64,000 nt of DNA from an uncultured Candidatus Saccharibacteria bacterium (GTDB lineage Bacteria > Patescibacteriota > Minisyncoccia > Phycocordibacterales > Zambryskibacteraceae): positions 5,132 through 69,131 of the forward strand of contig CAZYVS010000001.1 of assembly GCA_964651655.1 (NCBI GenBank), in the 5' to 3' direction. Within the stretch, counting starts at the first letter, position 1, and each line of letters starts with the position of its first letter. The position numbers and the translations under genes were made by a program. The notes below the pieces were generated by a model. It did not search any database. It was not told where the DNA came from and saw only the letters and a list, made by a program, of their open reading frames with translations. This document shows, in pieces, positions 34,206 through 63,708 of this stretch.

Positions 34206-34868
34206 TTATGGCAATAGTTCTTTGGTAATTTCCTTAGCTGGACTACTGGAAACAAATTTTTTATACGACGAAATGCTTTTTTCTTTAGTATAACGATCCG
34301 TTATAATATCCGTTACTAATAATCCTTCAAACCTATTTTTATCAATACAATCTTGATAACTTGACCATGGATAGAGATGCTCTTTTCCCGTCCATCCTTT
34401 TATTTCGCATGGATGTTTATGAATGTATGCCGAGGTATGCATTAATTGTCTGTCTTCGCCAATATGGACACTTTTATACGGACCTTGAAATAAGTGCCCG
34501 CTTTTTTCATGTCTAGTATTAAAATACTTTGTATATGCAGTCAAAACCCTGTGCATATATTTAGAAATGCCATTATCAACTAATTCACGAATAATTATAT
34601 GAAAATGGTTTGGCGCTAAACAGAAAACTACTAGTTCCACAATCCTCTTTTTTAGGATATCATTCTTTAACTCATCCGTAATGTGCAAAGTCGATCTTTG
34701 CACATTTTGGCGTATTTCTCTGCTTATATTTTTTATAACCACTTCTCCTTGAAAAGCCATGAGGAGAAATAAAAATCTTAAGCGATCTTGATCTGTTTCA
34801 AAGATTGGTTGTTTTTGCATTCCCCTGTTAAAGACATGCAAATATTCTCCGGGCGCATGAAATCGCAT
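34206..34868 (-). mobile_element. IS200/IS605-family Y1 transposase, REP-associated tyrosine transposase (RAYT)-like
   Basis: 220 aa. 'YLHVFNRGMQKQPIF' N-terminus. HUH motif 'NHFHIIIRE'. Catalytic-Tyr region 'TAYTKYFNTRHEKSGHLFQGPYKSVHI'. Flanked on both sides by REP-like palindromes of one family and carries one copy in-frame. Confidence 0.7.
34680..34706. repeat. REP-like palindromic element, copy 4 (inside the RAYT ORF, in frame)
   Basis: AATGTGCAAAG-TCGAT-CTTTGCACATT, 11-bp perfect arms. It encodes 'NVQRSTLHI' within the transposase. Confidence 0.6.
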
Positions 34869-39415: not shown

Positions 39416-41656
39416 ATGCGTTTACTTATAGTAGAGTCGCCGTCGAAGGCCAAGACTATCGAAAAATATCTTGGTAAAGATTTTCGCGTGGTGGCTTCTA
39501 TCGGTCATATCAGAGACCTTCCTAAATCAAATAGAGCCGCCATTGATATACCGGCCGGCTTCGTGCCGCATTACGAAGTGGTGAAAGGAAAGGAGAAAGT
39601 AATTTCCGAAATTAAATCACTGGTAAAAAAGGCCGACGAAGTCTTGCTTGCCACCGACCCAGACCGCGAGGGTGAGGCCATTGCCTGGCACGTAGAAGAA
39701 ACGGTTGGGCTCAAGAATCCAAAACGCGTTGTTTTTTACGAAATTACCAAAGAAGCCGTGGAGGAAGCTATTGAACACCCGAGAGAAATCGATACCAATT
39801 TGAGAGAAGCGCAAGAAGCCAGAAGAGTGCTGGATCGCCTAGTAGGCTACGATCTCTCTGGACTTATCTGGAAAAAAGTGCGTTACGGTCTGTCGGCCGG
39901 CAGAGTGCAATCCCCCGCCCTTAGAATTATCATGGAACGCGAAAGAGAAATTCGCGCGTTTGAGTCAATCACTTTCTGGAAAATTTTTGCAAATTTGGAA
40001 TCCAAAGTCAGACCTTTAAAAGATTCTCAAGGTCTGACCTTTGAATGTTCGGTTGAGCCTACAGACCAGAAAGAAGTGGAAAACATTCTTGAAGCAGGCA
40101 GAAATGGTTCGTGGCAAATAACAGATATTAAAGAAACGAAGGTGGCGCGCGCTCCGCGCGCGCCCTTCATCACCTCAACTCTGCAACAGGCGGCCAGCTC
40201 CCGACTTGGCCTCGCACCGTCTCGCACCATGTACTTTGCCCAAAGACTCTATGAAGCTGGACATATTACTTATATGCGCACAGATTCTACAAATCTTGGA
40301 GCAGCCGCGCGCAAGGAGGTTGAAGAATTGATAAAGAAAAAATACGGAGAAAGTTATTTTGAATCGCATGTTTTTACTAAAAAATCAAAAAACGCCCAAG
40401 AAGCCCACGAAGCCATCAGACCTACGCACATGAAAGTGGAAATGGCCGGAGTGAGCGACGGGGAGAAGAAACTCTACGGTTTAATCTGGCAAAGAACCAT
40501 ATCCAGCCAGATGAAATCAGCGGAAATTATGCGCACGAAGGTGGTGGCGAATATACAAGAAGTTGAGCTTCCACTTGGAAGCTCAACTTCCAAGCGAGAT
40601 TTAATACCTGATTTCTGGCTCAATGGTTCGCGCATCATCTTCGACGGCTGGCTTAAGGCGGACCGCCTATCGGCCGGCGAAGATATTGTCTTACCGAAAC
40701 TTGATATCGGCGAACCATTAAAACTGATAGACATGAATGTTGAGCAAAAAGAAACCCAACCGCCAGCCAGATACTCGGAAGCGGGTCTGGTTAAGGAACT
40801 TGAGAAACGCGGTATCGGTCGACCTTCCACTTATGCTTCTATTATCAAAACTTTGGATGATCGCGGATATGTAGAAAAAAGGGCTAAAGCGCTCTATCCA
40901 ACTGATACCGGCGAGGTAGTCAGCACTTTTCTCGAAGAACATTTTCCTACTTATATCAGCGACTCCTTCACCGCCGAAATGGAAGACGAATTGGATGATA
41001 TTGCCAACGGCGCACGTACCTATAGGAAAACCCTGTCAGACTTTTATACACCATTTCTAAAAGCGGTGGTAGAAAAAGAAAAAGTTCCAAAAGTCACCAA
41101 TCTTGGCCAGGCGCCAGAGGACTTGAAGTGTCCTGTCTGTGGAGCTAACATGATTATCAAGCTTGGCCGAGGCGGCAAGTTCCTGTCATGTGAAAAGTAT
41201 CCGGAGTGTCAGGGAGCCCGCACCATGGAAGGTAAAGAGCTTGAGGGGCCTAAAGATACCGGAGAAATCTGTCCAAAATGTGGCAAGGGAAATCTGACCA
41301 CTCGCGAGGGTAAGTTTGGAATGTTCACCACCTGTTCGCGTTTTCCAAAATGCAAATTTGTTAAAAAGGATAAAGAACAAGAAAAGGCGAACTCCACCGG
41401 AGTAGAATGTCCGATTTGTAAAAATGCCCTGCCTGCCGGCAGGCAGGGCTTCATATCGGAAAGACGCGGACGGTTCGGAGTTTTCTACAGCTGTTCAAAT
41501 TATCCCGATTGCAAATATGCCATCAAGGCCAAGCCCACCGGGGAAGTTTGTAAACTCTGCGATAGTTTAATGATGGAAGGCACTAAAACTATTCCAGAAA
41601 GATGCTCAAATAAAAAATGCCCAAATCACAATCCGCACAAAACCAGCCAGATGTAA
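39416..41656 (+). CDS. topA: DNA topoisomerase I
   Basis: TOPRIM 'MRLLIVESPSKAKTIEKYLG'. Active-site region 'GHITYMRTDS'. C-terminal tandem C4 zinc ribbons ('CPVCGANM...CEKYPEC', 'CPKCGKGNL...CSRFPKC', 'CPICKN...CSNYPDC'). Contains an in-frame 32-nt perfect palindrome. Confidence 0.9.
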   Translation: MRLLIVESPSKAKTIEKYLGKDFRVVASIGHIRDLPKSNRAAIDIPAGFVPHYEVVKGKEKVISEIKSLVKKADEVLLATDPDREGEAIAWHVEETVGLKNPKRVVFYEITKEAVEEAIEHPREIDTNLREAQEARRVLDRLVGYDLSGLIWKKVRYGLSAGRVQSPALRIIMEREREIRAFESITFWKIFANLESKVRPLKDSQGLTFECSVEPTDQKEVENILEAGRNGSWQITDIKETKVARAPRAPFITSTLQQAASSRLGLAPSRTMYFAQRLYEAGHITYMRTDSTNLGAAARKEVEELIKKKYGESYFESHVFTKKSKNAQEAHEAIRPTHMKVEMAGVSDGEKKLYGLIWQRTISSQMKSAEIMRTKVVANIQEVELPLGSSTSKRDLIPDFWLNGSRIIFDGWLKADRLSAGEDIVLPKLDIGEPLKLIDMNVEQKETQPPARYSEAGLVKELEKRGIGRPSTYASIIKTLDDRGYVEKRAKALYPTDTGEVVSTFLEEHFPTYISDSFTAEMEDELDDIANGARTYRKTLSDFYTPFLKAVVEKEKVPKVTNLGQAPEDLKCPVCGANMIIKLGRGGKFLSCEKYPECQGARTMEGKELEGPKDTGEICPKCGKGNLTTREGKFGMFTTCSRFPKCKFVKKDKEQEKANSTGVECPICKNALPAGRQGFISERRGRFGVFYSCSNYPDCKYAIKAKPTGEVCKLCDSLMMEGTKTIPERCSNKKCPNHNPHKTSQM
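40559..40594. repeat. perfect 15+15-bp palindrome (GAAGTTGAGCTTCCA-CT-TGGAAGCTCAACTTC), extended by CAAG to complete an overlapping CTTGGAAG/CTTCCAAG hairpin, inside topA in frame
   Basis: Encodes 'EVELPLGSSTSK'. A related core CACTTGGAAGCTCAAC(C/T)TCCAAG recurs inside miaA (47481..47503), which also encodes 'PLGSSTSK'. Confidence 0.6.
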
Positions 41657-43161
41657 ACATCCTCGACAAAATCGTGAGAAGCATGTCGGGTTCTTCCGCC
41701 GAGGAGATAGCAATGGTAAAGAAAGCTTTTGCCTTCGTCGAGCGGGCGCACCTTGAACACAAAAGACTTTCGGGTGAACCGTATCTCAAACATTTATCGG
41801 AAACGGCCCAAATCTTGACGGATCTGGGAGCGGGAGGAGCCACGATAGCGGCCGGATTACTCCACGATACCATCGAGGACGTCGGTATAAAAAGAGAAGA
41901 AATCGTCAAAGAATTTGGGGAAGAAATTGCTTTTCTCGTCGAAGGCGTAACCAAACTCGGACATCTCAAGTACAGGGGCATCGATCGTCACAACGAGAGT
42001 CTGCGAAAACTTTTCGTCGCCATGTCGGAGGACATCAGGGTGCTTCTTATTAAACTTGCAGACCGCCTGCACAACATGAGAACGCTCTCTTATGTGCCAA
42101 AAGATAAACAAAGACGAATAGCGGCTGAAACGCTTGAAATTTATGCGCCTATCGCCTACCGGTTAGGCATTAGGAAAATTAATCGCGAACTTGAGGACCT
42201 TTCTTTCCCCTATGTTTATCCCAAGGCCTATGAAGAAATGACGAAGGCGCTCAAAGAGCGGCATCAAGATAGAATTGAAAGTTTAGAGAAATTCTCCCAC
42301 TCTGTTATCAAAACACTCGTGAAAGAAGGACTGACTACGGCTAAGACAGAGTATCGAGTGAAGGGTCTTTATAGTCTCTACAAAAAATATCTTAGGTATG
42401 ACAAAGACTTGGAAAAAATTTACGATGTTAATGCCATACGCATTATGGTAGATTCCGTTGCCGATTGTTATCAAGCGCTGGGAGCCATACACGGACGTTG
42501 GAGACCCCTGCCTCATCGCATTAAAGATTATATCGCTTTCCCAAAACCGAACGGCTATCAAGCTCTGCATACGACCGTCTTTGTCGGCGATGGCAATATT
42601 GTGGAAGTTCAAATCAAGACCCACGAAATGTACCGGTATTCCGAATACGGTGTGGCTTCCCACCTTTTGTACAAAGCAGACAAGCAGGGCAAAAAAATTT
42701 TGGATTGGATATACGCTCTCTTGCCCAAACTAAGAAGAACCGGCAACCCAAGCGCTCTTCAGGAAAAAGATGTGCCCAAATGGATTTCGGAATTGGCATC
42801 ATACCGAGGACCGGCAAAAAATCAACGCCTCTTCCGCGAACGATTGGCCAGCGATTTTTTCAATTATCGCATATTTGTTTTTTCGCCCAAGGGCGACGTG
42901 GTAGACCTGCCGATCGGCTCAACACCCATTGACTTCGCCTATTCGATACACTCCAATATCGGCGACCACATGACAGGCGCTAAGGTCAATGGCAAATTAG
43001 TCGCGCTAGATACGGAGCTTCACAACGGAGATATTGTCTTTATCATGACAAGCGAAACCGCCAAGCCCAATCGCAAATGGCTCGATATGACCAAAACCTC
43101 AATGGCGCGCCGCCATATCCGTCGCGAACTTATCAAGCTAAGAGAATCGGAAAACTCTTAA
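41617..43161 (+). CDS. rel: bifunctional (p)ppGpp synthetase/hydrolase, RelA/SpoT family (short, no ACT domain)
   Basis: HD domain 'HLEHKRLSGEPYLKHLSETAQIL...GLLHDTIEDV'. Synthetase 'GLYSLYKKY...NAIRIMVDSVADCYQALGAIHGRWRP...DYIAFPKPNGYQALHTTV'. TGS 'GDVVDLPIGSTPIDFAYSIHSNIG'. The start may be an internal Met, since 41617 overlaps the topA end. Confidence 0.85.
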   Translation: MPKSQSAQNQPDVNILDKIVRSMSGSSAEEIAMVKKAFAFVERAHLEHKRLSGEPYLKHLSETAQILTDLGAGGATIAAGLLHDTIEDVGIKREEIVKEFGEEIAFLVEGVTKLGHLKYRGIDRHNESLRKLFVAMSEDIRVLLIKLADRLHNMRTLSYVPKDKQRRIAAETLEIYAPIAYRLGIRKINRELEDLSFPYVYPKAYEEMTKALKERHQDRIESLEKFSHSVIKTLVKEGLTTAKTEYRVKGLYSLYKKYLRYDKDLEKIYDVNAIRIMVDSVADCYQALGAIHGRWRPLPHRIKDYIAFPKPNGYQALHTTVFVGDGNIVEVQIKTHEMYRYSEYGVASHLLYKADKQGKKILDWIYALLPKLRRTGNPSALQEKDVPKWISELASYRGPAKNQRLFRERLASDFFNYRIFVFSPKGDVVDLPIGSTPIDFAYSIHSNIGDHMTGAKVNGKLVALDTELHNGDIVFIMTSETAKPNRKWLDMTKTSMARRHIRRELIKLRESENS

Positions 43162-56369: not shown

Positions 56370-56440
56370 GCGAGTATGGTCTAACGGTATGACACGACCT
56401 TCCCAAGGTTGAAACCGGGGTCCGACTCCCCGTACTCGCA
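56370..56440 (+). tRNA. tRNA-Gly (anticodon CCC)
   Basis: Acceptor GCGAGTA/TACTCGC. Anticodon stem CGACC/GGTTG with loop TTCCCAA. T-stem CGGGG/CCCCG with loop TCCGACT. Confidence 0.75.
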
Positions 56441-56461
56441 CAAAAATCACGAAGTCCAATT

Positions 56462-56537
56462 TGGTGCGCCCTGAAGGGATCGAACCTTCGACCTTATCCT
56501 TAAGAGGGATCTGCTCTACCAGCTGAGCTAAGGGCGC
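56462..56537 (-). tRNA. tRNA-Lys (anticodon CTT)
   Basis: Minus strand. GCGCCCT...AGGGCGC-A-CCA. D-arm GCTC/GAGC. Anticodon loop CTCTTAA. T-arm GAAGG-TTCGATC-CCTTC. One G-A mismatch at 27-43. Confidence 0.75.
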
Positions 56538-56601
56538 ATATAAATCAAAGTATCACAAAAAAGCGATAATTTTTCAATTATGATAAAGTGATATCCGCTA
56601 T

Positions 56602-56673
56602 GGCCTAGTGGCGAAGGGGTAACGCGGCTGTCTGCAAAACAGCTACACGCCGGTTCGAGTCCGACCTAGGCCT
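56602..56673 (+). tRNA. tRNA-Cys (anticodon GCA)
   Basis: Acceptor GGCCTAG/CTAGGCC. Anticodon stem GCTGT/ACAGC with loop CTGCAAA. T-loop TTCGAGT. One mismatch in the T-stem. Confidence 0.65.
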
Positions 56674-56697
56674 CAAGCTATGATGATGTAGCTTTAT

Positions 56698-56779
56698 GCC
56701 CGGGTGGCGTAATTGGCAGCCGCGTCCGACTTAAGATCGGATACCGAAAGGTGTGTGGGTCCAAATCCCACCCCGGGCA
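56698..56779 (+). tRNA. tRNA-Leu (anticodon TAA)
   Basis: Type II. Acceptor GCCCGGG/CCCGGGC. Anticodon stem TCCGA/TCGGA with loop CTTAAGA. Long variable arm. T-stem GTGGG/CCCAC. Confidence 0.75.
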
Positions 56780-56781
56780 CT

Positions 56782-56866
56782 GCCGAGGTGGCGAAATTGG
56801 TAGACGTACTTGCCTTAGGAGCAAGCGGGGTAACCCATGGGAGTTCAAATCTCCCCCTCGGCACCA
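56782..56866 (+). tRNA. tRNA-Leu (anticodon TAG)
   Basis: Type II. Acceptor GCCGAGG/CCTCGGC plus A-CCA. Anticodon stem CTTGC/GCAAG with loop CTTAGGA. T-loop TTCAAAT. Confidence 0.8.
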
Positions 56867-59000: not shown

Positions 59001-61103
59001 TTATTTCGCCACTTCAACAGCCTGGTCAAAAGAAATGGAAAGCAATTTAGAAATGCCGTCTGAACCCATAGTGACACCATAGATCACACCGGCGCGAGAC
59101 ATCGTCTCTCGATTATGAGTAATGAGAATAAGTTGCGAATGTTTCGACAAAGTTTCAACCAAGTCTCCGTATTTTTTAGAATTAGATTCATCGAGTGCCG
59201 CATCTGTCTCATCAAGGATAATGAACGGCGGCGGATTGACTTGAGAAACCGCGAAGATAAGAGCGATGGAAGTCAAGGCCCGCTCCCCGCCCGAGAGCAT
59301 GACGAGCCCGCGGATTTTTTTCTTAGGCAAGCTGACTTTAATGTCAAGACCCTCCTCAATTTCTTTTTCGACCTCCTCAAGGTCAGACCTTTCTAAATCC
59401 TCGAGGTTTGACCTTTTCCCGGTCTCTTTCGTCAAAACGAGACAAGCCTCTCCCCCGCCAAACATTGAAACAAAAAAGTTGCCGAATTCTTGGTTGATTT
59501 TTTCCAATCCGGAACTAAATTCAGATGCCAGACGCGTTTCCAATTCTTTAATAAGTTCGGCAAGAGTATCGGCCGATTTTTCCAGATCAAGTAATTCGCG
59601 CGCCAGAAACGCATCGCGTTCGGAAGTTTCTTTGTATTCCTTGTGAATATCGTCCATACCGGAAACATTGAAATCCTCAAGTCGAATTTTAAGCTTCTCA
59701 ATAATGCGTTTAGTGGCTTCCTGTTCTTCGCGGTTAACAGGCACGGAGACATCGCCTCCGCGTTCGTATTTGGACACGACAGGACCAACAAGATGGCCGA
59801 TCTCCTGAAGTTCTCTTCTGCACTCATCCTCAATCAGATTTAGGGAATCCTCGCGCAATTTCAGAAGGTTGAGTTTTGAACCAAGCTCATTTTCAAGAGA
59901 TTTAGTACGAAAAACTGCTTTCTCCGCCTCAGAAATTTTATGCTCTTTCTTTTTGATTATTATAAGTTTTTCTTCGAACTCTATTTGCTCTTTCTTAAGC
60001 TCTTTGATTCTCGCATGGGTTTTAGAAATAAATTTAGAATCTGTGGCATGTTTTCTTTCTGTTATGAAACTCCCTATTTTATCCTTGACTACACTAAGGT
60101 CTTGAAGGTGTTTTATATCTTCGTACAATTCTTCAACCTCTTTCAGTCTTACAGTCTTTAGCTCATCTGAAACAGAAAGTTTTTTCTCATTCTCGATCAG
60201 ACGTTCTTCGGCGATGATAAAACCGTCTATCTTGCCAATCTCCCGAGTCAATTCATCCTTCTCTTTTTGTATAGTGCTTAGTCCTGATTCTAATTCTATC
60301 AATTTCTTTGCTTCCTTCGACTCTTTAGAAAGATTTTCAAGTTCTATCTTCAGCGGCTCTTTCTCTTCTATTAACTTTTTTCTTGCAACGGAAATATAAT
60401 GCTCTTCATTTTGAAAATATTTTCTAGCTACCGAAAGAAGTTCTTGACGTTGGACTTCTGTTTTCTCTATTTTCTCTACTTGTTTTTTCAGAAACTTAAG
60501 GTGCGGCGCAATTTCCTTTCGCAAAGCTTCCACTTGCTGGATATTTTCAAAAGTCTTCTTGAGTTTGCGTTCGCTCTCCAGACGTTTGTATTGATAAAGT
60601 CTCAATCCCAAGGCGTCTTCTATCATCTCTTTCCGGTCCTTAGGACTGGCGCTAAGAATTTTGTCAGCTTCGCCTTGAGAAATAATATGATGGCCGGAGG
60701 CGCCGATATGAGTTCGAGCCAAAAGTTCCAAAATATCCCTAAGACGAACCTGACTGCCGTTGATACGATATTCGTTGAGTCCGTCTCTGTGAACTATGCG
60801 TTCAATTATCACTTCCAAAAAATCTACATCAAAGATTTTTTGAGTGTTATCAAAAGTGACCTTGACAGAGGCCCGATGGGCGCGCGGCTCGCTCACCGCC
60901 CCATTCCAGATCAAATCTTCCCCGCGTTTGCCGCGCATACTTTTGATAGATTGTTCTCCAAGCGCAAAACGAAAAGCCTCGGCCACGTTGGATTTGCCGG
61001 AACCGTTCGGGCCGACTATGGCCGCGATGGGCGAATCAAATTCAAAAACATTCTTTCTGGCAAAAGATTTAAATCCCGTAAGTTCTATACTTTTTAAATA
61101 CAT
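59001..61103 (-). CDS. smc: SMC-family chromosome segregation ATPase (short, 700 aa)
   Basis: N-terminal Walker A 'IVGPNGSGKSNVAEAFRFALGE'. Long coiled-coil (Glu/Lys/Leu heptads). C-terminal signature and Walker B 'LSGGERALTSIALIFAVSQVNPPPFIILDETDAALD'. No obvious hinge of canonical length. Confidence 0.75.
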   Translation of the reverse strand: MYLKSIELTGFKSFARKNVFEFDSPIAAIVGPNGSGKSNVAEAFRFALGEQSIKSMRGKRGEDLIWNGAVSEPRAHRASVKVTFDNTQKIFDVDFLEVIIERIVHRDGLNEYRINGSQVRLRDILELLARTHIGASGHHIISQGEADKILSASPKDRKEMIEDALGLRLYQYKRLESERKLKKTFENIQQVEALRKEIAPHLKFLKKQVEKIEKTEVQRQELLSVARKYFQNEEHYISVARKKLIEEKEPLKIELENLSKESKEAKKLIELESGLSTIQKEKDELTREIGKIDGFIIAEERLIENEKKLSVSDELKTVRLKEVEELYEDIKHLQDLSVVKDKIGSFITERKHATDSKFISKTHARIKELKKEQIEFEEKLIIIKKKEHKISEAEKAVFRTKSLENELGSKLNLLKLREDSLNLIEDECRRELQEIGHLVGPVVSKYERGGDVSVPVNREEQEATKRIIEKLKIRLEDFNVSGMDDIHKEYKETSERDAFLARELLDLEKSADTLAELIKELETRLASEFSSGLEKINQEFGNFFVSMFGGGEACLVLTKETGKRSNLEDLERSDLEEVEKEIEEGLDIKVSLPKKKIRGLVMLSGGERALTSIALIFAVSQVNPPPFIILDETDAALDESNSKKYGDLVETLSKHSQLILITHNRETMSRAGVIYGVTMGSDGISKLLSISFDQAVEVAK

Positions 61104-61147: not shown

Positions 61148-61837
61148 CTACTTCCAGCCTTTGGCCTCAAGGGCCTGGCGAGCGGCTTCTTGCTCTGCGT
61201 CTTGTTTGGATTTGCCTTCTCCTTTGCCATAGACTTCCTCGTTTACATAGACTCCGACCACAAAGCGTTTGTCGTGGTCGGGGCCCGATTCGCGTATAGT
61301 TTTGTAGATAGGAGTCATACTCATATACTCTTGGGCTTTTTCTTGGAAACGACTTTTGGCGTCTATCCAATCGCCGGTAGCAAGAATATTCTCCACAAGT
61401 GGCGCGATATGGGTCAGAATGAAATTCTTGGCGATATCATACCCCCGGTCAAGATAGATGGCGCCGATAATGGCTTCCAAAGTGTTAGCCAGAATATACT
61501 GTCGCGCTCGGCCGGTGTCTTTTAATTCTCCTTTTGAGAGCAGAAGAAATTCGTTGGCGCCGAGAGTTTGGGCTACTTGGCTGCAAGTATCGGCATTGAC
61601 CAGCGCCGATCGCAAGGCGGTCAACTCCCCCTCATCTGAATGTTTAAGGCGTTCGTACAAATATCCGGTAATGGCCAATTCCAAAACCGCATCTCCCAGA
61701 AATTCCAGTCGTTCATTATGTTCCAGAGCCAGATCGCGATTTTCATTGATATATGAACGATGAGTAAAAGCTTGCTTTAACAAATTTTTGTCTTTAAATA
61801 CCACTCCGGCTCTTTTTTCAAATTTATCGAAATTCAT
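61148..61837 (-). CDS. rnc: ribonuclease III
   Basis: 'FTHRSYINENRDLALEHNERLEFLGDAVLELAITGYLYERL' RNase III signature. C-terminal dsRBD 'RFVVGVYVNEEVYGKGEGKSKQDAEQEAARQALE'. Confidence 0.9.
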   Translation of the reverse strand: MNFDKFEKRAGVVFKDKNLLKQAFTHRSYINENRDLALEHNERLEFLGDAVLELAITGYLYERLKHSDEGELTALRSALVNADTCSQVAQTLGANEFLLLSKGELKDTGRARQYILANTLEAIIGAIYLDRGYDIAKNFILTHIAPLVENILATGDWIDAKSRFQEKAQEYMSMTPIYKTIRESGPDHDKRFVVGVYVNEEVYGKGEGKSKQDAEQEAARQALEAKGWK

Positions 61838-61887: not shown

Positions 61888-62808
61888 CTATTTAGATTCG
61901 GCTAATTTTGTTATGGCTTTGGTTACTATAGGCAGAATATCATCATAAAAATTTAAATCCAAGATGTCCGCAAGCTTAAACCAGCGCACATCATCCAAAC
62001 CGCCTTGCTCCTCTTTTTTCTCAAGCGTCAGTTCTTGGTACGACGCTTCAGCCAGAAAGTAGGCAACGTGTTTCAAGATCTTACCCTTCTCTGGATGATA
62101 GGTCGAATACGCGTTCTCTCCAAGCCGTTCAAGAATATCGATGGGTATGCCGAGTTCTTCTTGCGCCTCGCGACGAAGACCTTCTTCCTCGCTTTCTTGG
62201 CCCTCAAGTTTGCCTTTGGTCAGGGTCCAGTGACCGAAGACATCATGCACCAGCGCCATATAAATATTATTCTCATGGCGAGCAAAGACCACCGCGCCGG
62301 CTAAACGCTCAACTGGTAATTTGTCGAGCGGCACATTGCCGTATTTCTTTTTTGGTTTCGGCTGGTCGAATTTGCCAGGCTCTCCCATCTCTTTGTAAAC
62401 GGCTCCGAGCACTCCATTGATAAACTTGCCGGAAGTGTCGCCGCCAAAAGTTTTGGCCAGTTCAATAGCTTCGTTGATAGCTACTTTCGGCGGCACTTCC
62501 TTGCGGTCCGCGAACAAAAGTTCGGCCAAACCGATGCGTAAAATATTTCTGTCAACAACGGAGATTTTATTAATCGGCCAATCCGGCGCCGCTTTTTCTA
62601 TCAAAACATCGAGGTTTTTCTTTTTCTCCAACACTAGTTTCAAAAGATTGTTCATAAACGGCCTATCGTTCGTGCCCGGCGCAAATTCTTGAACCGTGCG
62701 CTCAAAGATCGGAAAAATATCTCCAGTTTTAGCGCCTTCAAAATCCCATTCAAAGAGAGTCTGGAGAACAATTGACCTAGATAAATGTCGGTTGGACATA
62801 AAGAACAA
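61888..62808 (-). CDS. nusB: NusB-like N-terminal domain fused to C-terminal NUDIX hydrolase domain
   Basis: Residues about 1-140 'LSRSIVLQTLFEWDF...ISVVDRNILRIGLAELLF...EAIELAKTFGGDTSGKFINGVLG' match the NusB fold. Residues about 170-300 carry a Nudix box 'GKLEGQESEEEGLRREAQEELGI'. Confidence 0.7.
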   Translation of the reverse strand: MFFMSNRHLSRSIVLQTLFEWDFEGAKTGDIFPIFERTVQEFAPGTNDRPFMNNLLKLVLEKKKNLDVLIEKAAPDWPINKISVVDRNILRIGLAELLFADRKEVPPKVAINEAIELAKTFGGDTSGKFINGVLGAVYKEMGEPGKFDQPKPKKKYGNVPLDKLPVERLAGAVVFARHENNIYMALVHDVFGHWTLTKGKLEGQESEEEGLRREAQEELGIPIDILERLGENAYSTYHPEKGKILKHVAYFLAEASYQELTLEKKEEQGGLDDVRWFKLADILDLNFYDDILPIVTKAITKLAESK

Positions 62809-62822
62809 AAGAACTTAAAAAA

Positions 62823-63026
62823 CTACTTGACTTTTTTCGCCTGTTTTTCCAGTTTAGCCGTTAAATCAATAACTTTTCTACCGCGATAAGTGCCGGTCGC
62901 TTTCGAAAGCCGATGCCGTAAATGAAAATTGCCCGACTCATCCTTGGATAAAGCGGGTTTTGAGAGCGCGTGATGAGAACGCCTGTTTCTGGTATGAGAC
63001 CTCGTATGCCTCATTCGTACTGTCAT
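62823..63026 (-). CDS. rpmF: 50S ribosomal protein L32
   Basis: 'TRNRRSHHALSKPALSKDESGNFHLRHRLSKATGTYRGRKVI' matches the L32 pattern (RRSH.AL....L..C..CG..HL.H.....G.YRGR.V). Confidence 0.8.
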   Translation of the reverse strand: MTVRMRHTRSHTRNRRSHHALSKPALSKDESGNFHLRHRLSKATGTYRGRKVIDLTAKLEKQAKKVK

Positions 63027-63114: not shown

Positions 63115-63708
63115 TCACCATCTCTTCGGATAGGCGGCAACGGCGGCCCTCTGCTCATCCGTGAGCTCTTTTGGCTTCCACCCACGAATGATGTCGAAGT
63201 AGCGTTCGCAGACTTTAGGATTATCGACAGCGGCCCATGTTAACACCGCCTTGGTCGCTAGGAGATGGAAAGGTACCGTGCCCTTCTCCTCAATCTCGCA
63301 CAGCCAATCTTCAGCGGTAACCATTTTGAGAGGGCCAAGAACCTCGTCCGGATCATCCCTGTCTACAGTCTCAAAAGTCCTCAGGCACTGTTCCGGCACA
63401 TACACCGGAAAAGCAACCTTGAGATGAATACCGCCCGGGTGGTACTCATCAGGCCCACACCTGACAAGTATAGGCGTCGGCGACAGTATCTTCATCGCAA
63501 ACACCCTGCCACCCCGCGCCTCACTGAAGACACCGTTGAGAAGGGTCTCCAGAATGGATTGACCATTTTTTCCACCTTCCGTGATATGCCGGATGGAAGT
63601 CTTACCTTCACTTTCTATCAGATAAGTCATCCGAGCAATCTCCAGTAAGCCGCTCTTACCATCAATCTTCACGATCGGGGTAGAGACACTATGACTCGTA
63701 ATCTCCAT
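63115..63708 (-). CDS. hypothetical protein
   Basis: 197 aa. No recognisable motif. Not DUF177/YceD-like despite sitting upstream of rpmF. Confidence 0.35.
   Translation of the reverse strand: MEITSHSVSTPIVKIDGKSGLLEIARMTYLIESEGKTSIRHITEGGKNGQSILETLLNGVFSEARGGRVFAMKILSPTPILVRCGPDEYHPGGIHLKVAFPVYVPEQCLRTFETVDRDDPDEVLGPLKMVTAEDWLCEIEEKGTVPFHLLATKAVLTWAAVDNPKVCERYFDIIRGWKPKELTDEQRAAVAAYPKRW

What the first reader, a model, noticed from the sequence alone, without database searches (positions are those of the whole stretch)
61888..62808. NusB fused to a NUDIX hydrolase domain
NusB is normally a stand-alone protein of about 140 aa. Here the first 140 or so residues are NusB-like, and residues about 170-300 carry a canonical Nudix box (GX5EX7REUXEEXGU: 'GKLEGQESEEEGLRREAQEELGI'). 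A transcription antitermination factor physically coupled to a nucleotide-diphosphate hydrolase could link rRNA antitermination to an RNA-cap, NAD-cap or alarmone-cleaving activity. The same window encodes a Rel/SpoT enzyme, so ppGpp metabolism may be relevant.
Basis: partly seen in the sequence, partly recalled or inferred. Interest (0 to 1): 0.5.

Follow-up and report, generated by a model that had tools for sequence, protein, structure and literature searches.

The report
NusB fused to Nudix domain
In a large group of tiny uncultured bacteria (Parcubacteria), the rRNA transcription factor NusB really is one protein with a Nudix nucleotide-hydrolase domain; relatives often lose the catalytic residues but keep the domain, so it probably binds a nucleotide or an RNA 5' end.

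Summary
Window 61888-62799 (minus strand; true start ATG 62799, 303 aa) encodes one protein. Its parts are a bona fide NusB (aa 1-139), a disordered K/P-rich linker (140-162) and a Nudix domain (163-303) with an exact Nudix box (aa 196-218).

It is not a frameshift artefact. The same architecture is found full-length in 120/120 closest homologues and in 80/80 of the best species-representative genomes. It persists down to ~31% identity across Zambryskibacteria, Nomurabacteria and Paceibacterota. It always lies in rpmF-nusB::nudix-rnc-smc, often overlapping rnc.

By profile and by fold, the Nudix domain belongs to the ApnA-hydrolase (NUDT2 / Aquifex aq_158 / Ndx1 / CT771) subfamily.

The new point is that the catalytic box is intact here but eroded in most of the family (intact in 50/80, 9/55 and 23/120 of three sets). 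Meanwhile D186, F188, T192, Y231, Y285 and D287 are invariant, and the domain evolves as slowly as NusB.

Best reading: a flexibly tethered module that binds a nucleotide or an RNA 5' end and is attached to the antitermination factor. It is probably hydrolytic in this organism and binding-only in many relatives, as in NrtR. Databases call it just "NusB", and I found no literature on it. It is a new variant of known kinds, of moderate interest.

The parts
61888..62799 (-). Complete nusB::nudix coding sequence (303 aa plus the stop codon at 61888-61890). An in-frame TTG at 62808 gives the mechanical 306-aa ORF, but ATG 62799 is the likely start.
   Evidence: Homologues are 303 aa with a conserved MSNRH N-terminus.
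62383..62799 (-). NusB domain, aa 1-139: all-helical, seven helices.
   Evidence: Pfam PF01029, E 5e-33. TIGR01951, 127 bits against a cutoff of 88. Foldseek TM 0.86-0.87, rmsd 1.8-2.0 A, to NusB in NusB-NusE-BoxA complexes. F126 (= Aquifex F122) and D83 (= Aquifex E81) are invariant.
62314..62382 (-). Inter-domain linker, aa 140-162 (EPGKFDQPKPKKKYGNVPLDKLP): K/P-rich and predicted to be disordered.
   Evidence: pLDDT is below 50 at residues 140-153 and 143-155 in two AF2 runs, with pTM 0.48-0.49. The spacing between flanking motifs is conserved at 43-55 residues in 356 proteins; composition is 21% K and 13% P. dN is higher here than in either domain.
61891..62313 (-). Nudix-fold domain, aa 163-303, of the ApnA-hydrolase (NUDT2 / aq_158 / Ndx1 / CT771) type.
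   Evidence: Pfam PF00293, E 3e-13. Profile against the PDB: 3i7u 3.5e-16, CT771 3e-13, Ndx1 4e-12, NUDT2 7e-10. Foldseek TM 0.86-0.89 to the Aquifex Ap4A hydrolase.
62146..62214 (-). Nudix box, aa 196-218, GKLEGQESEEEGLRREAQEELGI (G196, E202, R210, E211, E214, E215, G217). It is intact in this organism.
   Evidence: exact regex match, the only one in the window. It varies in relatives.
61148..61837 (-). rnc (RNase III), 50 nt downstream on the same strand. It is the conserved operon partner.
   Evidence: Pfam Ribonucleas_3_3, Ribonuclease_3 and dsrm. It lies downstream of the fusion in 79/80 loci, mostly with gaps of 0-100 nt, and overlaps the fusion by 8-16 nt in deep-branching members.
62823..63026 (-). 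rpmF (ribosomal protein L32), 23 nt upstream on the same strand.
   Evidence: Pfam PF01783. It is upstream in at least 53/80 loci and in L082 and L084-L087.

Best explanation
Shown. This is a single, conserved gene of Parcubacteria (the Paceibacteria lineage: Zambryskibacteria, Nomurabacteria and relatives). It encodes a genuine NusB joined by a ~25-residue disordered, lysine/proline-rich tether to a Nudix-fold domain derived from the dinucleoside-polyphosphate (ApnA) hydrolase subfamily. It is very probably co-transcribed with RNase III.

Inferred. The NusB half does the normal job: with S10 it binds BoxA on nascent pre-rRNA and nucleates the antitermination / rRNA-chaperone complex. The tethered Nudix half is a module that binds a nucleotide or a polyphosphate. 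Its most likely target is the 5'-terminal (tri)phosphorylated or Np4-capped nucleotide of the same BoxA-bearing transcript. The alternative target is free ApnA or NTP near the polymerase.

In organisms with an intact box, including this one, the module probably also hydrolyses its ligand. That would convert a ppp- or Np4-capped leader 5' end to a monophosphate and prepare the leader for decay after RNase III cleavage. In the many relatives whose box glutamates are replaced, it would only bind. This is the same evolutionary pattern as in the NrtR regulators.

My confidence by step: real fusion 0.97; NusB half functional 0.85; Nudix half catalytically active in this organism 0.6; the conserved role is ligand binding rather than catalysis 0.6; the ligand is an RNA 5' end 0.3. 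The overall confidence value given (0.45) is for the composite statement that this is a tethered nucleotide- or RNA-5'-end-binding module, hydrolytic in this organism.
For: Real fusion:
- All 120 closest homologues are 279-327 aa (most 303-320) and carry PF01029 + PF00293, from many independent assemblies.
- 80/80 of the best species-representative genomes hold it full-length.
- 77 of the 150 best 50%-identity representatives have both domains, down to ~31% identity.
- dN/dS is ~0.06-0.09 in both domains.

NusB half: it passes the TIGR01951 equivalog cutoff. The BoxA-U8-stacking Phe and the E81-equivalent acid are invariant.

Nudix subfamily: the top PDB hits, by profile over the full length and by fold, are Ap4A/Ap6A hydrolases. 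NUDT2 of that subfamily trims ppp-RNA (PMC8616924), and Nudix RppH removes Np4N caps and the 5' pyrophosphate (PMC9283932).

Binding rather than catalysis is the constant:
- The full box is kept in only 50/80, 94/120, 9/55 and 23/120 of four sets.
- E211 is replaced by K, V, G or R. This is the position of the E58A mutation in the human Ap4A hydrolase structure 4ijx.
- D186, F188, T192, Y231, Y285 and D287 are 120/120 invariant in the distant set and invariant in the 103-sequence alignment.
- dN of the Nudix domain is about equal to dN of NusB in the intact-box and degenerate-box classes alike.
- The degenerate RKVPLE motif is itself fixed in 12 of the 13 sequences of that class (RKVPIE in the thirteenth).

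Tether: two AF2 runs (34 and 103 sequences) give confident domains (pLDDT 81 and 86) but pTM 0.48-0.49 and a disordered linker.

rRNA-processing link: rnc lies immediately downstream in 79/80 loci and in deep members, sometimes overlapping the fusion. Nus factors and the leader-trailer helix (the RNase III substrate) are known to act together in 30S biogenesis (PMC10250234, PMC4807359).

Precedent: in NrtR, a Nudix hydrolase is fused to a transcription factor, the signature is intact in some members and lost in many, and ligand binding is retained (PMC2330246). NrtR and AraR also appear among the fold hits.
Against: - No substrate or ligand can be assigned computationally.
- RppH-specific models do not match (20.9 bits against a cutoff of 118).
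- The adenine-stacking role I assign to Y231 and Y285 rests on my recollection of the C. elegans Ap4A hydrolase structure. I could not verify it in the paper library.
- The invariant residues could be fold-core or protein-interface residues rather than ligand contacts. I could not inspect model coordinates.
- A low pTM is weak evidence against a defined inter-domain interface.
- No rRNA operon or BoxA was available, so 5'-end proximity could not be tested. The BoxA consensus is not enriched in the window.
- I could not check whole genomes for a second, stand-alone NusB or for other 5'-end enzymes.
- dS is near saturation, so the dN/dS values are approximate.
Confidence: 0.45

Rival explanations
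1. Small-molecule sensor (NrtR-like effector domain). The Nudix-like domain binds a free nucleotide signal, such as Ap4A or other ApnA, an NTP, or possibly an alarmone. It thereby switches NusB's ability to bind S10/BoxA, coupling rRNA antitermination to nutritional or stress state. Intact-box members also destroy the signal.
For: The evolutionary pattern is the same as in NrtR: a fused Nudix domain, an eroded signature and a retained pocket. NrtR and AraR are among the fold hits. The ApnA-hydrolase ancestry makes ApnA a natural ligand.
Against: Two AF2 runs predict no defined interface between the domains, and the linker is long and disordered. That is an awkward basis for allostery. No regulatory target is known. 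Rel/SpoT is not linked.
Confidence: 0.22
2. Housekeeping enzyme fused for convenience. The Nudix domain is an ordinary ApnA/NTP-sanitising hydrolase that was fused to NusB in a streamlined genome. It acts on the free nucleotide pool and has no functional coupling to antitermination. Degenerate-box versions are decaying remnants.
For: The box is canonical in this organism. Patescibacteria genomes are reduced, and fusions can arise by loss of an intergenic region. One Nomurabacteria locus carries a separate Nudix gene nearby that could supply the activity.
Against: Degenerate-box domains are not decaying. Their dN equals that of the NusB domain, dN/dS is ~0.06-0.07, the new RKVPLE motif is fixed, and a set of non-catalytic residues is 100% invariant. 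The architecture and the linker length are conserved down to ~31% identity. A sister lineage has rpmF-nusB-rnc with no Nudix at all, and no stand-alone precursor gene was found next to nusB.
Confidence: 0.12
3. Protein-protein adaptor. The Nudix fold has been recruited as a structural module that contacts RNA polymerase, S10, RNase III or another factor of the rRNA transcription complex, for example replacing an accessory factor such as SuhB. Nucleotide binding is irrelevant.
For: Catalytic residues are dispensable, while surface-type motifs (DxFxxWT, YxD) are invariant. The gene is tightly linked, sometimes overlapping, with rnc. SuhB shows that an enzyme fold can serve as an integral antitermination factor (PMC4807359, PMC6614797; listed).
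Against: Several invariant or near-invariant positions (W191, T192, K195, Y231, Y247, W273, Y285) are shared with catalytically active ApnA hydrolases (alignments). That is more simply explained by a retained ligand pocket or fold core. E202, R210 and E215 of the box remain mostly conserved.
Confidence: 0.12
4. Artefact: two adjacent genes (nusB and a nudix gene) joined by a sequencing or assembly frameshift.
For: One metagenomic contig (L082) has nusB and nudix called as two genes.
Against: In L082 the split is a single in-frame TAA at the Tyr135 codon, and the same frame continues through the linker. The other apparent stand-alone Nudix hits that I checked are contig-edge fragments. Hundreds of independent assemblies have the uninterrupted ORF.
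Confidence: 0.01

Closest known systems
NusB (transcription antitermination factor; TIGR01951 / PF01029)
   Same: The N-terminal 139 aa pass the equivalog threshold. They have the NusB fold (TM 0.87 to NusB in NusB-NusE-BoxA complexes) and keep the BoxA-U8-stacking Phe (F126) and the E81-equivalent acid (D83).
   Different: Canonical NusB is a stand-alone protein of ~130-150 aa. Here it carries a ~25-aa disordered linker and a 140-aa Nudix-fold domain, and it sits in rpmF-nusB-rnc-smc.
ApnA (Ap4A/Ap6A) hydrolase subfamily of Nudix enzymes: Aquifex aq_158 (3i7u), Thermus Ndx1 (1vc8), Chlamydia CT771 (4ilq), human NUDT2 (3u53), C. elegans Ap4A hydrolase (1kt9), Mtb Rv2985/MutT1 N-domain
   Same: These are the best full-length profile hits (E 3.5e-16 to 1e-9) and the best fold hits (TM up to 0.89). 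They share the D..(H)WT..KG motif before the box, the Tyr after the box, the C-terminal W and the Y/F positions. The window protein has a canonical box.
   Different: The known enzymes are stand-alone (or fused to a histidine-phosphatase domain in MutT1) and always catalytic. Most members of the fusion family have lost E211 and/or E214 or more. F188 and D287 are specific to the fusion family.
NrtR / AraR Nudix-related transcriptional regulators
   Same: A Nudix hydrolase is fused to a nucleic-acid-binding transcription factor. The signature is intact in some members and perturbed in many, and the domain is retained as a ligand-binding effector (PMC2330246). They appear among the fold hits.
   Different: In NrtR the Nudix domain is N-terminal, derives from an ADP-ribose pyrophosphatase and packs against a winged-helix DNA-binding domain. 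Here it is C-terminal, derives from an ApnA hydrolase, is flexibly tethered, and its partner is an RNA-binding elongation factor.
RsmB/Sun 16S rRNA m5C967 methyltransferase
   Same: This is the one well-known case of a NusB-like RNA-binding domain placed N-terminal to an enzyme domain that acts on rRNA.
   Different: There the catalytic domain is a SAM methyltransferase and the N-domain is only NusB-like. The RsmB models score 17-50 bits against cutoffs of 269-540.
RppH (bacterial RNA 5' pyrophosphohydrolase / Np4 decapping Nudix enzyme)
   Same: A Nudix enzyme that works on RNA 5' ends. It is the functional analogue of the mechanism proposed here.
   Different: The fusion's Nudix domain is not an orthologue: RppH models score 14-21 bits against cutoffs of 118-139, and BdRppH is only a mid-ranking fold hit (TM 0.65-0.67).

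Membership tests
NusB (TIGR01951 / PF01029) | The sequence matches the family model above the curated threshold. | tested here: met
   TIGR01951, 127.4 bits against a cutoff of 88.35. PF01029, 114.7 bits against 23.1.
NusB (TIGR01951 / PF01029) | All-helical NusB fold. | tested here: met
   AF2 predicts seven helices with pLDDT mostly above 85. Foldseek TM 0.84-0.87 to Aquifex, Thermotoga and Mtb NusB.
NusB (TIGR01951 / PF01029) | BoxA/NusE contact residues: the helix-7 aromatic residue that stacks on U8 (F122) and the acid at position 81. | tested here: met
   F126 and D83 align to Aquifex F122 and E81. Both are invariant in 103 sequences. D at this position also occurs in Thermotoga and Mtb NusB.
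NusB (TIGR01951 / PF01029) | Binds S10 (NusE) and BoxA RNA and supports antitermination. | not testable with these tools
   This needs biochemistry or complementation. No rRNA leader was available in the window.
NusB (TIGR01951 / PF01029) | Is the organism's only NusB. | tested here: inconclusive
   There is no second NusB in the 64-kb window. Whole genomes could not be fetched.
Nudix hydrolase superfamily (PF00293) | Nudix alpha/beta/alpha fold. | tested here: met
   PF00293, 50.4 bits against a cutoff of 21.1. Foldseek probability 1.00 to many Nudix structures.
Nudix hydrolase superfamily (PF00293) | Nudix box GX5EX7REUXEEXGU. | tested here: met
   Exact match at aa 196-218 in the window protein. 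Across the fusion family, however, the box is intact in only 50/80, 94/120, 9/55 and 23/120 of four sets.
Nudix hydrolase superfamily (PF00293) | Metal-dependent pyrophosphohydrolase activity. | not testable with these tools
   This needs an enzyme assay.
ApnA hydrolase (NUDT2-type) subfamily | Closest to characterised Ap4A/Ap6A hydrolases over the whole domain. | tested here: met
   Profile A3 against the PDB: 3i7u 3.5e-16, 4ilq 3.2e-13, 1vc8 3.6e-12, 3u53 7.4e-10, 1kt9 9.2e-10. The fold ranking agrees.
ApnA hydrolase (NUDT2-type) subfamily | (H)W-x-x-P-K-G motif before the box, and a Tyr about 16-18 residues after it. The criterion is recalled from Dunn et al. 1999 and Bailey et al. 2002 and was not verified here. 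| tested here: inconclusive
   The window protein has GHWTLTKG, with Pro replaced by Thr. Y231 (+13) is invariant and Y234 (+16) is variable. The literature check failed.
RppH | Match to the RppH equivalog models. | tested here: not met
   NF001936, 20.9 bits against a cutoff of 118. NF001937, 14.1 bits against 139.
NudC (NAD-cap / NADH pyrophosphatase) | Match to the NudC equivalog model. | tested here: not met
   NF001299, 14.5 bits against a cutoff of 158.
NrtR family | A Nudix-like effector domain plus a C-terminal winged-helix DNA-binding domain. | tested here: not met
   There is no wHTH domain; the partner domain is NusB. The resemblance is an analogy only.
RsmB/Sun | A NusB-like N-domain plus a SAM methyltransferase domain. 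| tested here: not met
   RsmB models score at most 50 bits against cutoffs of at least 269. The C-domain is Nudix.

The most novel reading that the evidence does not exclude
The Nudix(-like) domain is a reader, and in some lineages an eraser, of the 5' terminus of nascent pre-rRNA. NusB-S10 holds BoxA while the tethered domain grips the ppp- or Np4-capped 5' nucleotide. This would give the antitermination complex a second anchor that keeps the leader at the polymerase until the trailer is made, so that the leader-trailer helix forms for the co-encoded RNase III. In intact-box species it would then license leader decay. That would be a new role for the Nudix fold inside a transcription elongation complex, and a CPR-specific solution to rRNA chaperoning.
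Probability: 0.15. Interest if true: 0.75.

Novelty: new variant of a known kind. Interest (0 to 1): 0.5.

Why it matters
NusB is one of the most conserved bacterial transcription factors and is regarded as a stand-alone protein. Here an entire, very diverse branch of the Candidate Phyla Radiation has replaced it with a NusB-Nudix protein, and databases still label that protein plainly "NusB".

The mosaic loss of catalytic residues under strong purifying selection marks a natural enzyme-to-binding-module transition, like NrtR, inside the rRNA transcription machinery. It also gives ready-made natural "catalytic-dead" controls.

If the module acts on RNA 5' ends, it would physically link 5'-end chemistry (ppp or Np4 caps) to antitermination and RNase III processing. 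If it senses ApnA, it would link a stress nucleotide directly to rRNA synthesis. Either outcome can be tested with recombinant proteins, and either would inform how minimal-genome, unculturable bacteria build ribosomes.

Tried and rejected
- Frameshift artefact: rejected.
- Stand-alone Nudix relatives of the C-domain. P0252 is a contig-edge fragment starting at the linker Met. P0265/L082 is a single in-frame TAA. P0236 lies at the start of a 992-bp contig. No genuine two-gene precursor was found.
- A link to ppGpp through the window's Rel/SpoT: the gene is real but 19 kb away with unrelated genes between, so it was not pursued.
- A BoxA consensus scan of the window gave 11 hits against 7.6 expected, which is uninformative. 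There is no rRNA gene in the window.
- Literature searches for NusB+Nudix and for NusB+Patescibacteria found nothing relevant. The search for Ap4A hydrolase Tyr76/Tyr121 found nothing usable.
- The listing of cluster members gave no organism names for the divergent representatives.
- The afdb50 fold library was not available.
- Monophyly of the RKVPLE class. An NJ tree scatters the class, needing at least 13 state changes. Nearest-neighbour analysis shows weak signal outside the box region. I therefore make no claim about the number of independent losses or about recombination.
- orf197 (63115-63708) against the stand-alone Nudix gene in the syntenic slot of L085: no significant similarity (BLASTP E 1.8) and no Pfam hit.
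- A more diverse alignment for AF2, to look for a fixed inter-domain interface: pTM was unchanged at 0.48.
Full report

Yes. The window has one uninterrupted ORF at 61888-62808 on the minus strand (306 aa from a TTG). Homologues are 303 aa and begin with a conserved MSNRH. The real start is therefore the ATG at 62799, 23 nt after the stop of rpmF.

- Pfam finds NusB at aa 10-139 (E 5e-33) and NUDIX at aa 171-287 (E 3e-13).
- The NCBIfam equivalog model for NusB is passed (127 bits against a cutoff of 88).
- The quoted string GKLEGQESEEEGLRREAQEELGI is aa 196-218 (nt 62146-62214). It matches GX5EX7REUXEEXGU exactly and is the only such match in six-frame translation of the window.

**2. Is it a frameshift-joined gene pair?**

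No.

- All 120 closest proteins in a 5.8-billion-protein collection are 279-327 aa (most 303-320) and carry both Pfam domains. They come from many independent assemblies (NCBI, ENA, JGI, Logan).
- In one-genome-per-species GTDB contigs, 363 stretches encode a relative, and the best 80 (63-95% identity) all cover residues 1 to ~300.
- An exhaustive HMMER search of 1.84 billion 50%-identity representatives gives 145 hits at E<=1e-30. Of the 150 best, 77 have both domains and 55 of these are full-length, down to ~31% identity.
- The apparent stand-alone Nudix hits that I checked are fragments. P0252 starts at the linker's Met on a contig edge. P0236 lies at the start of a 992-bp contig. In L082 the "two genes" are separated by a single in-frame TAA at the Tyr135 codon, and the reading frame continues unchanged.
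- Both domains evolve under strong purifying selection (dN/dS ~0.06-0.09; dS is near saturation, so the ratio is approximate).

**3. Who has it, and in what context?**

Record titles and source names place it in Zambryskibacteria, Nomurabacteria, Paceibacterota, Minisyncoccia and the "Parcubacteria group", all within the Patescibacteria/CPR. The nearest relative of the window's gene (95% protein identity) is from a Zambryskibacteria MAG (L001).

The gene order rpmF - nusB::nudix - rnc - smc is conserved:

- rnc follows in 79/80 loci, usually within 0-100 nt.
- In deep-branching members the two genes overlap by 8-16 nt, and rnhB lies upstream.
- A sister lineage has rpmF - nusB (144 aa) - rnc with no Nudix domain (L084). 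The nusB-rnc linkage is therefore older than the fusion, and the Nudix domain was added at the 3' end of nusB.

It is 19 kb away, with topoisomerase I upstream and, between it and nusB, ParB, a P-type ATPase, MiaA, ClpB, IF-2, RbfA, a tRNA cluster, RNase R and SMC. There is no linkage.

**4. The NusB half.**

AF2 gives the seven-helix NusB fold. Foldseek aligns it to NusB from the Aquifex NusB-NusE-BoxA complexes (TM 0.87, rmsd 1.9 A).

Stagno et al. (PMC3177189) identify F122 (stacks on BoxA U8), E81 and G78 (U8 recognition, NusE H15 contact) and K118. In the HMMER alignment to Aquifex NusB these correspond to F126, D83, S80 and T122. F126 and D83 are invariant in 103 diverse fusion proteins. 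An Asp at the E81 position is also found in Thermotoga and M. tuberculosis NusB.

Nothing suggests loss of NusB function. I could not test whether it is the only NusB in the genome. None other exists in the window.

**5. The Nudix half.**

A 22-sequence profile of the C-terminal domain hits, over essentially its full length:

| Structure | E-value |
|---|---|
| Aquifex Ap4A hydrolase | 3.5e-16 |
| Chlamydia CT771 | 3.2e-13 |
| Thermus Ndx1 Ap6A hydrolase | 3.6e-12 |
| Human NUDT2 | 7e-10 |
| C. elegans Ap4A hydrolase | 9e-10 |
| Mtb Rv2985 (deposited in the PDB as 8-oxo-(d)GTP phosphatase; entry title calls it a Nudix diadenosine polyphosphatase) | 1e-9 |
| Dcp2 decapping enzymes | ~4e-9 |

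Foldseek gives the same ranking (TM 0.86-0.89 to 3i7u).

RppH, NudC, MutT and ADP-ribose pyrophosphatase models are all far below threshold. So the domain descends from the ApnA-hydrolase branch. Members of that branch also act on RNA 5' ends: NUDT2 converts ppp-RNA to p-RNA (PMC8616924), and Nudix RppH removes the pyrophosphate and Np4N caps (PMC9283932).

**6. The unexpected part: the catalytic box is not what the family conserves.**

Box integrity was scored at G196, E202, R210, E211, E214, E215 and G217.

| Set | Full signature kept |
|---|---|
| Closest homologues | 94/120 |
| Species representatives | 50/80 |
| Full-length 50%-identity representatives | 9/55 |
| Second, more distant set (Nomurabacteria/Paceibacterota) | 23/120 |

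Recurrent variants:

- RKVPLE (E211K, 213P, E214L). It is fixed in 12 of the 13 sequences of its class (RKVPIE in the thirteenth) and puts a Pro inside the catalytic helix.
- R-V..D-E and R-G..E-E.
- A 5-residue insertion between G196 and E202.
- In deep branches, domains in which Pfam no longer sees Nudix at all (P0194, P0266), or which carry a long K/E-rich insertion (P0238, P0249, P0256).

E211 is the residue mutated in the human Ap4A hydrolase structure 4ijx (the E58A mutant). I obtained this by counting along the alignment and from the PDB title. E215, the equivalent of Ndx1 E50, is the best-kept glutamate.

In contrast, D186, F188, T192, Y231, Y285 and D287 are 120/120 invariant in the distant set. 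G168, K195, G239, Y247, W273 and W191 (aromatic in nearly all) are nearly invariant.

dN of the Nudix domain is about equal to dN of the NusB domain in all three classes: intact-box 0.166 vs 0.183, RK..LE 0.143 vs 0.147, RV..[DE]E 0.085 vs 0.084. The domain is therefore maintained by selection whether or not it can catalyse.

Several of the constant positions (D, W-T, K-G, the Tyr after the box, the C-terminal W and Y/F) are shared with the active ApnA hydrolases in the alignments. From memory of the C. elegans enzyme, the two Tyr would be the adenine-stacking pair and the Lys a phosphate ligand. I could not verify this in the library.

**7. Domain arrangement.**

Two AF2 runs, with 34 and then 103 diverse sequences, give confident domains (mean pLDDT 81 and 86). 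Both give pTM of only 0.48-0.49 and a linker with pLDDT below 50.

The linker is K/P-rich (21% K, 13% P). Its length is conserved, with 43-55 residues between flanking motifs in 356 proteins. It evolves faster than either domain in the intact-box and RK..LE classes. This looks like a flexible tether rather than a rigid two-domain unit.

**8. Most likely mechanism (inference).**

NusB-S10 binds BoxA on the nascent pre-rRNA at the polymerase. A tethered nucleotide/polyphosphate-binding module with about 25 residues of reach is then well placed to meet either the 5' end of the same leader or nucleotides near the polymerase.

In this organism, with an intact box, I expect hydrolysis. That would be ppp or Np4 cap to p, or cleavage of ApnA. 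In degenerate-box relatives I expect binding only.

The constant partnership with rnc fits a role in pre-rRNA leader handling. So does the known cooperation of Nus factors with the leader-trailer helix in 30S biogenesis (PMC10250234, PMC4807359).

NrtR is a documented precedent for exactly this evolutionary pattern: a Nudix enzyme fused to a transcription factor, with the signature intact in some members and lost in many, and ligand binding retained (PMC2330246).

The rivals, with their confidences, are listed separately: a free-nucleotide sensor that modulates NusB, a housekeeping enzyme fused without coupling, a protein-protein adaptor, and an artefact.

**9. Comparison with what is known, and novelty.**

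The protein is a member of NusB and of the Nudix superfamily (ApnA-hydrolase branch). It is not RppH, NudC, NrtR or RsmB (see the membership table).

The combination itself appears undescribed. Full-text searches for NusB+Nudix and NusB+Patescibacteria returned nothing relevant. Every source name seen is simply "NusB" or "N utilization substance protein B".

I rate it a new variant of known kinds. It is a lineage-wide NusB with a Nudix/pseudo-Nudix appendage.

**10. Limits.**

- No substrate, ligand or partner is demonstrated.
- Whole genomes and rRNA leaders were out of reach.
- Model coordinates could not be inspected, so pocket versus interface was not resolved.
- dS is saturated.
- The number of independent catalytic losses is unresolved.

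Noticed in passing
window 59001-61103 (-); also L085 6633-8894 and L087 6602-8770: The SMC-like protein downstream of rnc is only 700 aa (753 and 722 aa in two distant relatives). The SMC_N profile spans almost the whole protein. Typical bacterial SMC is ~1150-1200 aa, so this lineage seems to have a conserved short SMC with a much reduced coiled coil and hinge.
   Followed up: partly
window 63115-63708 (-); L085 3946-4596: A 197-aa ORF lies between rnhB and rpmF. It has no Pfam hit and has homologues in only 6/80 related loci. In a Nomurabacteria genome the same slot holds a stand-alone Nudix gene (216 aa, PF00293 E 2.5e-7). The two are not detectably similar (BLASTP E 1.8). A nearby stand-alone Nudix could matter for whether the fused domain needs to stay catalytic.
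   Followed up: partly
L082 940-942 (GCA_013565675.1, JACCDV010735530.1): One metagenomic assembly has an in-frame TAA in place of the conserved Tyr135 codon at the end of the NusB domain. The gene is therefore called as nusB (133 aa) plus nudix (141 aa, TTG start). This could be a sequencing error, a pseudogene or a real secondary split. It is a single case.
   Followed up: partly
window 41617-43161 (+): A compact Rel/SpoT homologue (514 aa: HD_4, RelA_SpoT, TGS). No domain was detected C-terminal to TGS. It overlaps the end of topA by ~40 nt.
   Followed up: no
window 56370-56863: A cluster of five tRNA genes, four on the plus strand and one on the minus strand (56465-56537), lies between rbfA and the RNase R gene. 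Upstream of it is a short IF-2 (510 aa) followed by rbfA.
   Followed up: no
window 34206-34868 (-): A 220-aa ORF matches the IS200-like Y1 transposase family (PF01797, E 9e-10). Mobile elements are uncommon in such small genomes.
   Followed up: no
L075 (JBEBJM010000013.1, labelled Nitrospira sp.) and many 'uncultured Candidatus Saccharibacteria' TPA records: Contigs carrying the Parcubacteria-type nusB::nudix-rnc operon are labelled Nitrospira or Saccharibacteria in their records. This is probably mis-binning or generic labelling, not real occurrence of the fusion in those taxa.
   Followed up: no
P0238, P0249, P0256 (about 340 aa): Deep-branching NusB fusion proteins have a C-terminal domain that carries a ~60-80-aa lysine/glutamate-rich insertion where the Nudix box helix would be. 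They keep Nudix-like flanking strands (for example 'VGEANYS' and 'YKWLD').
   Followed up: partly
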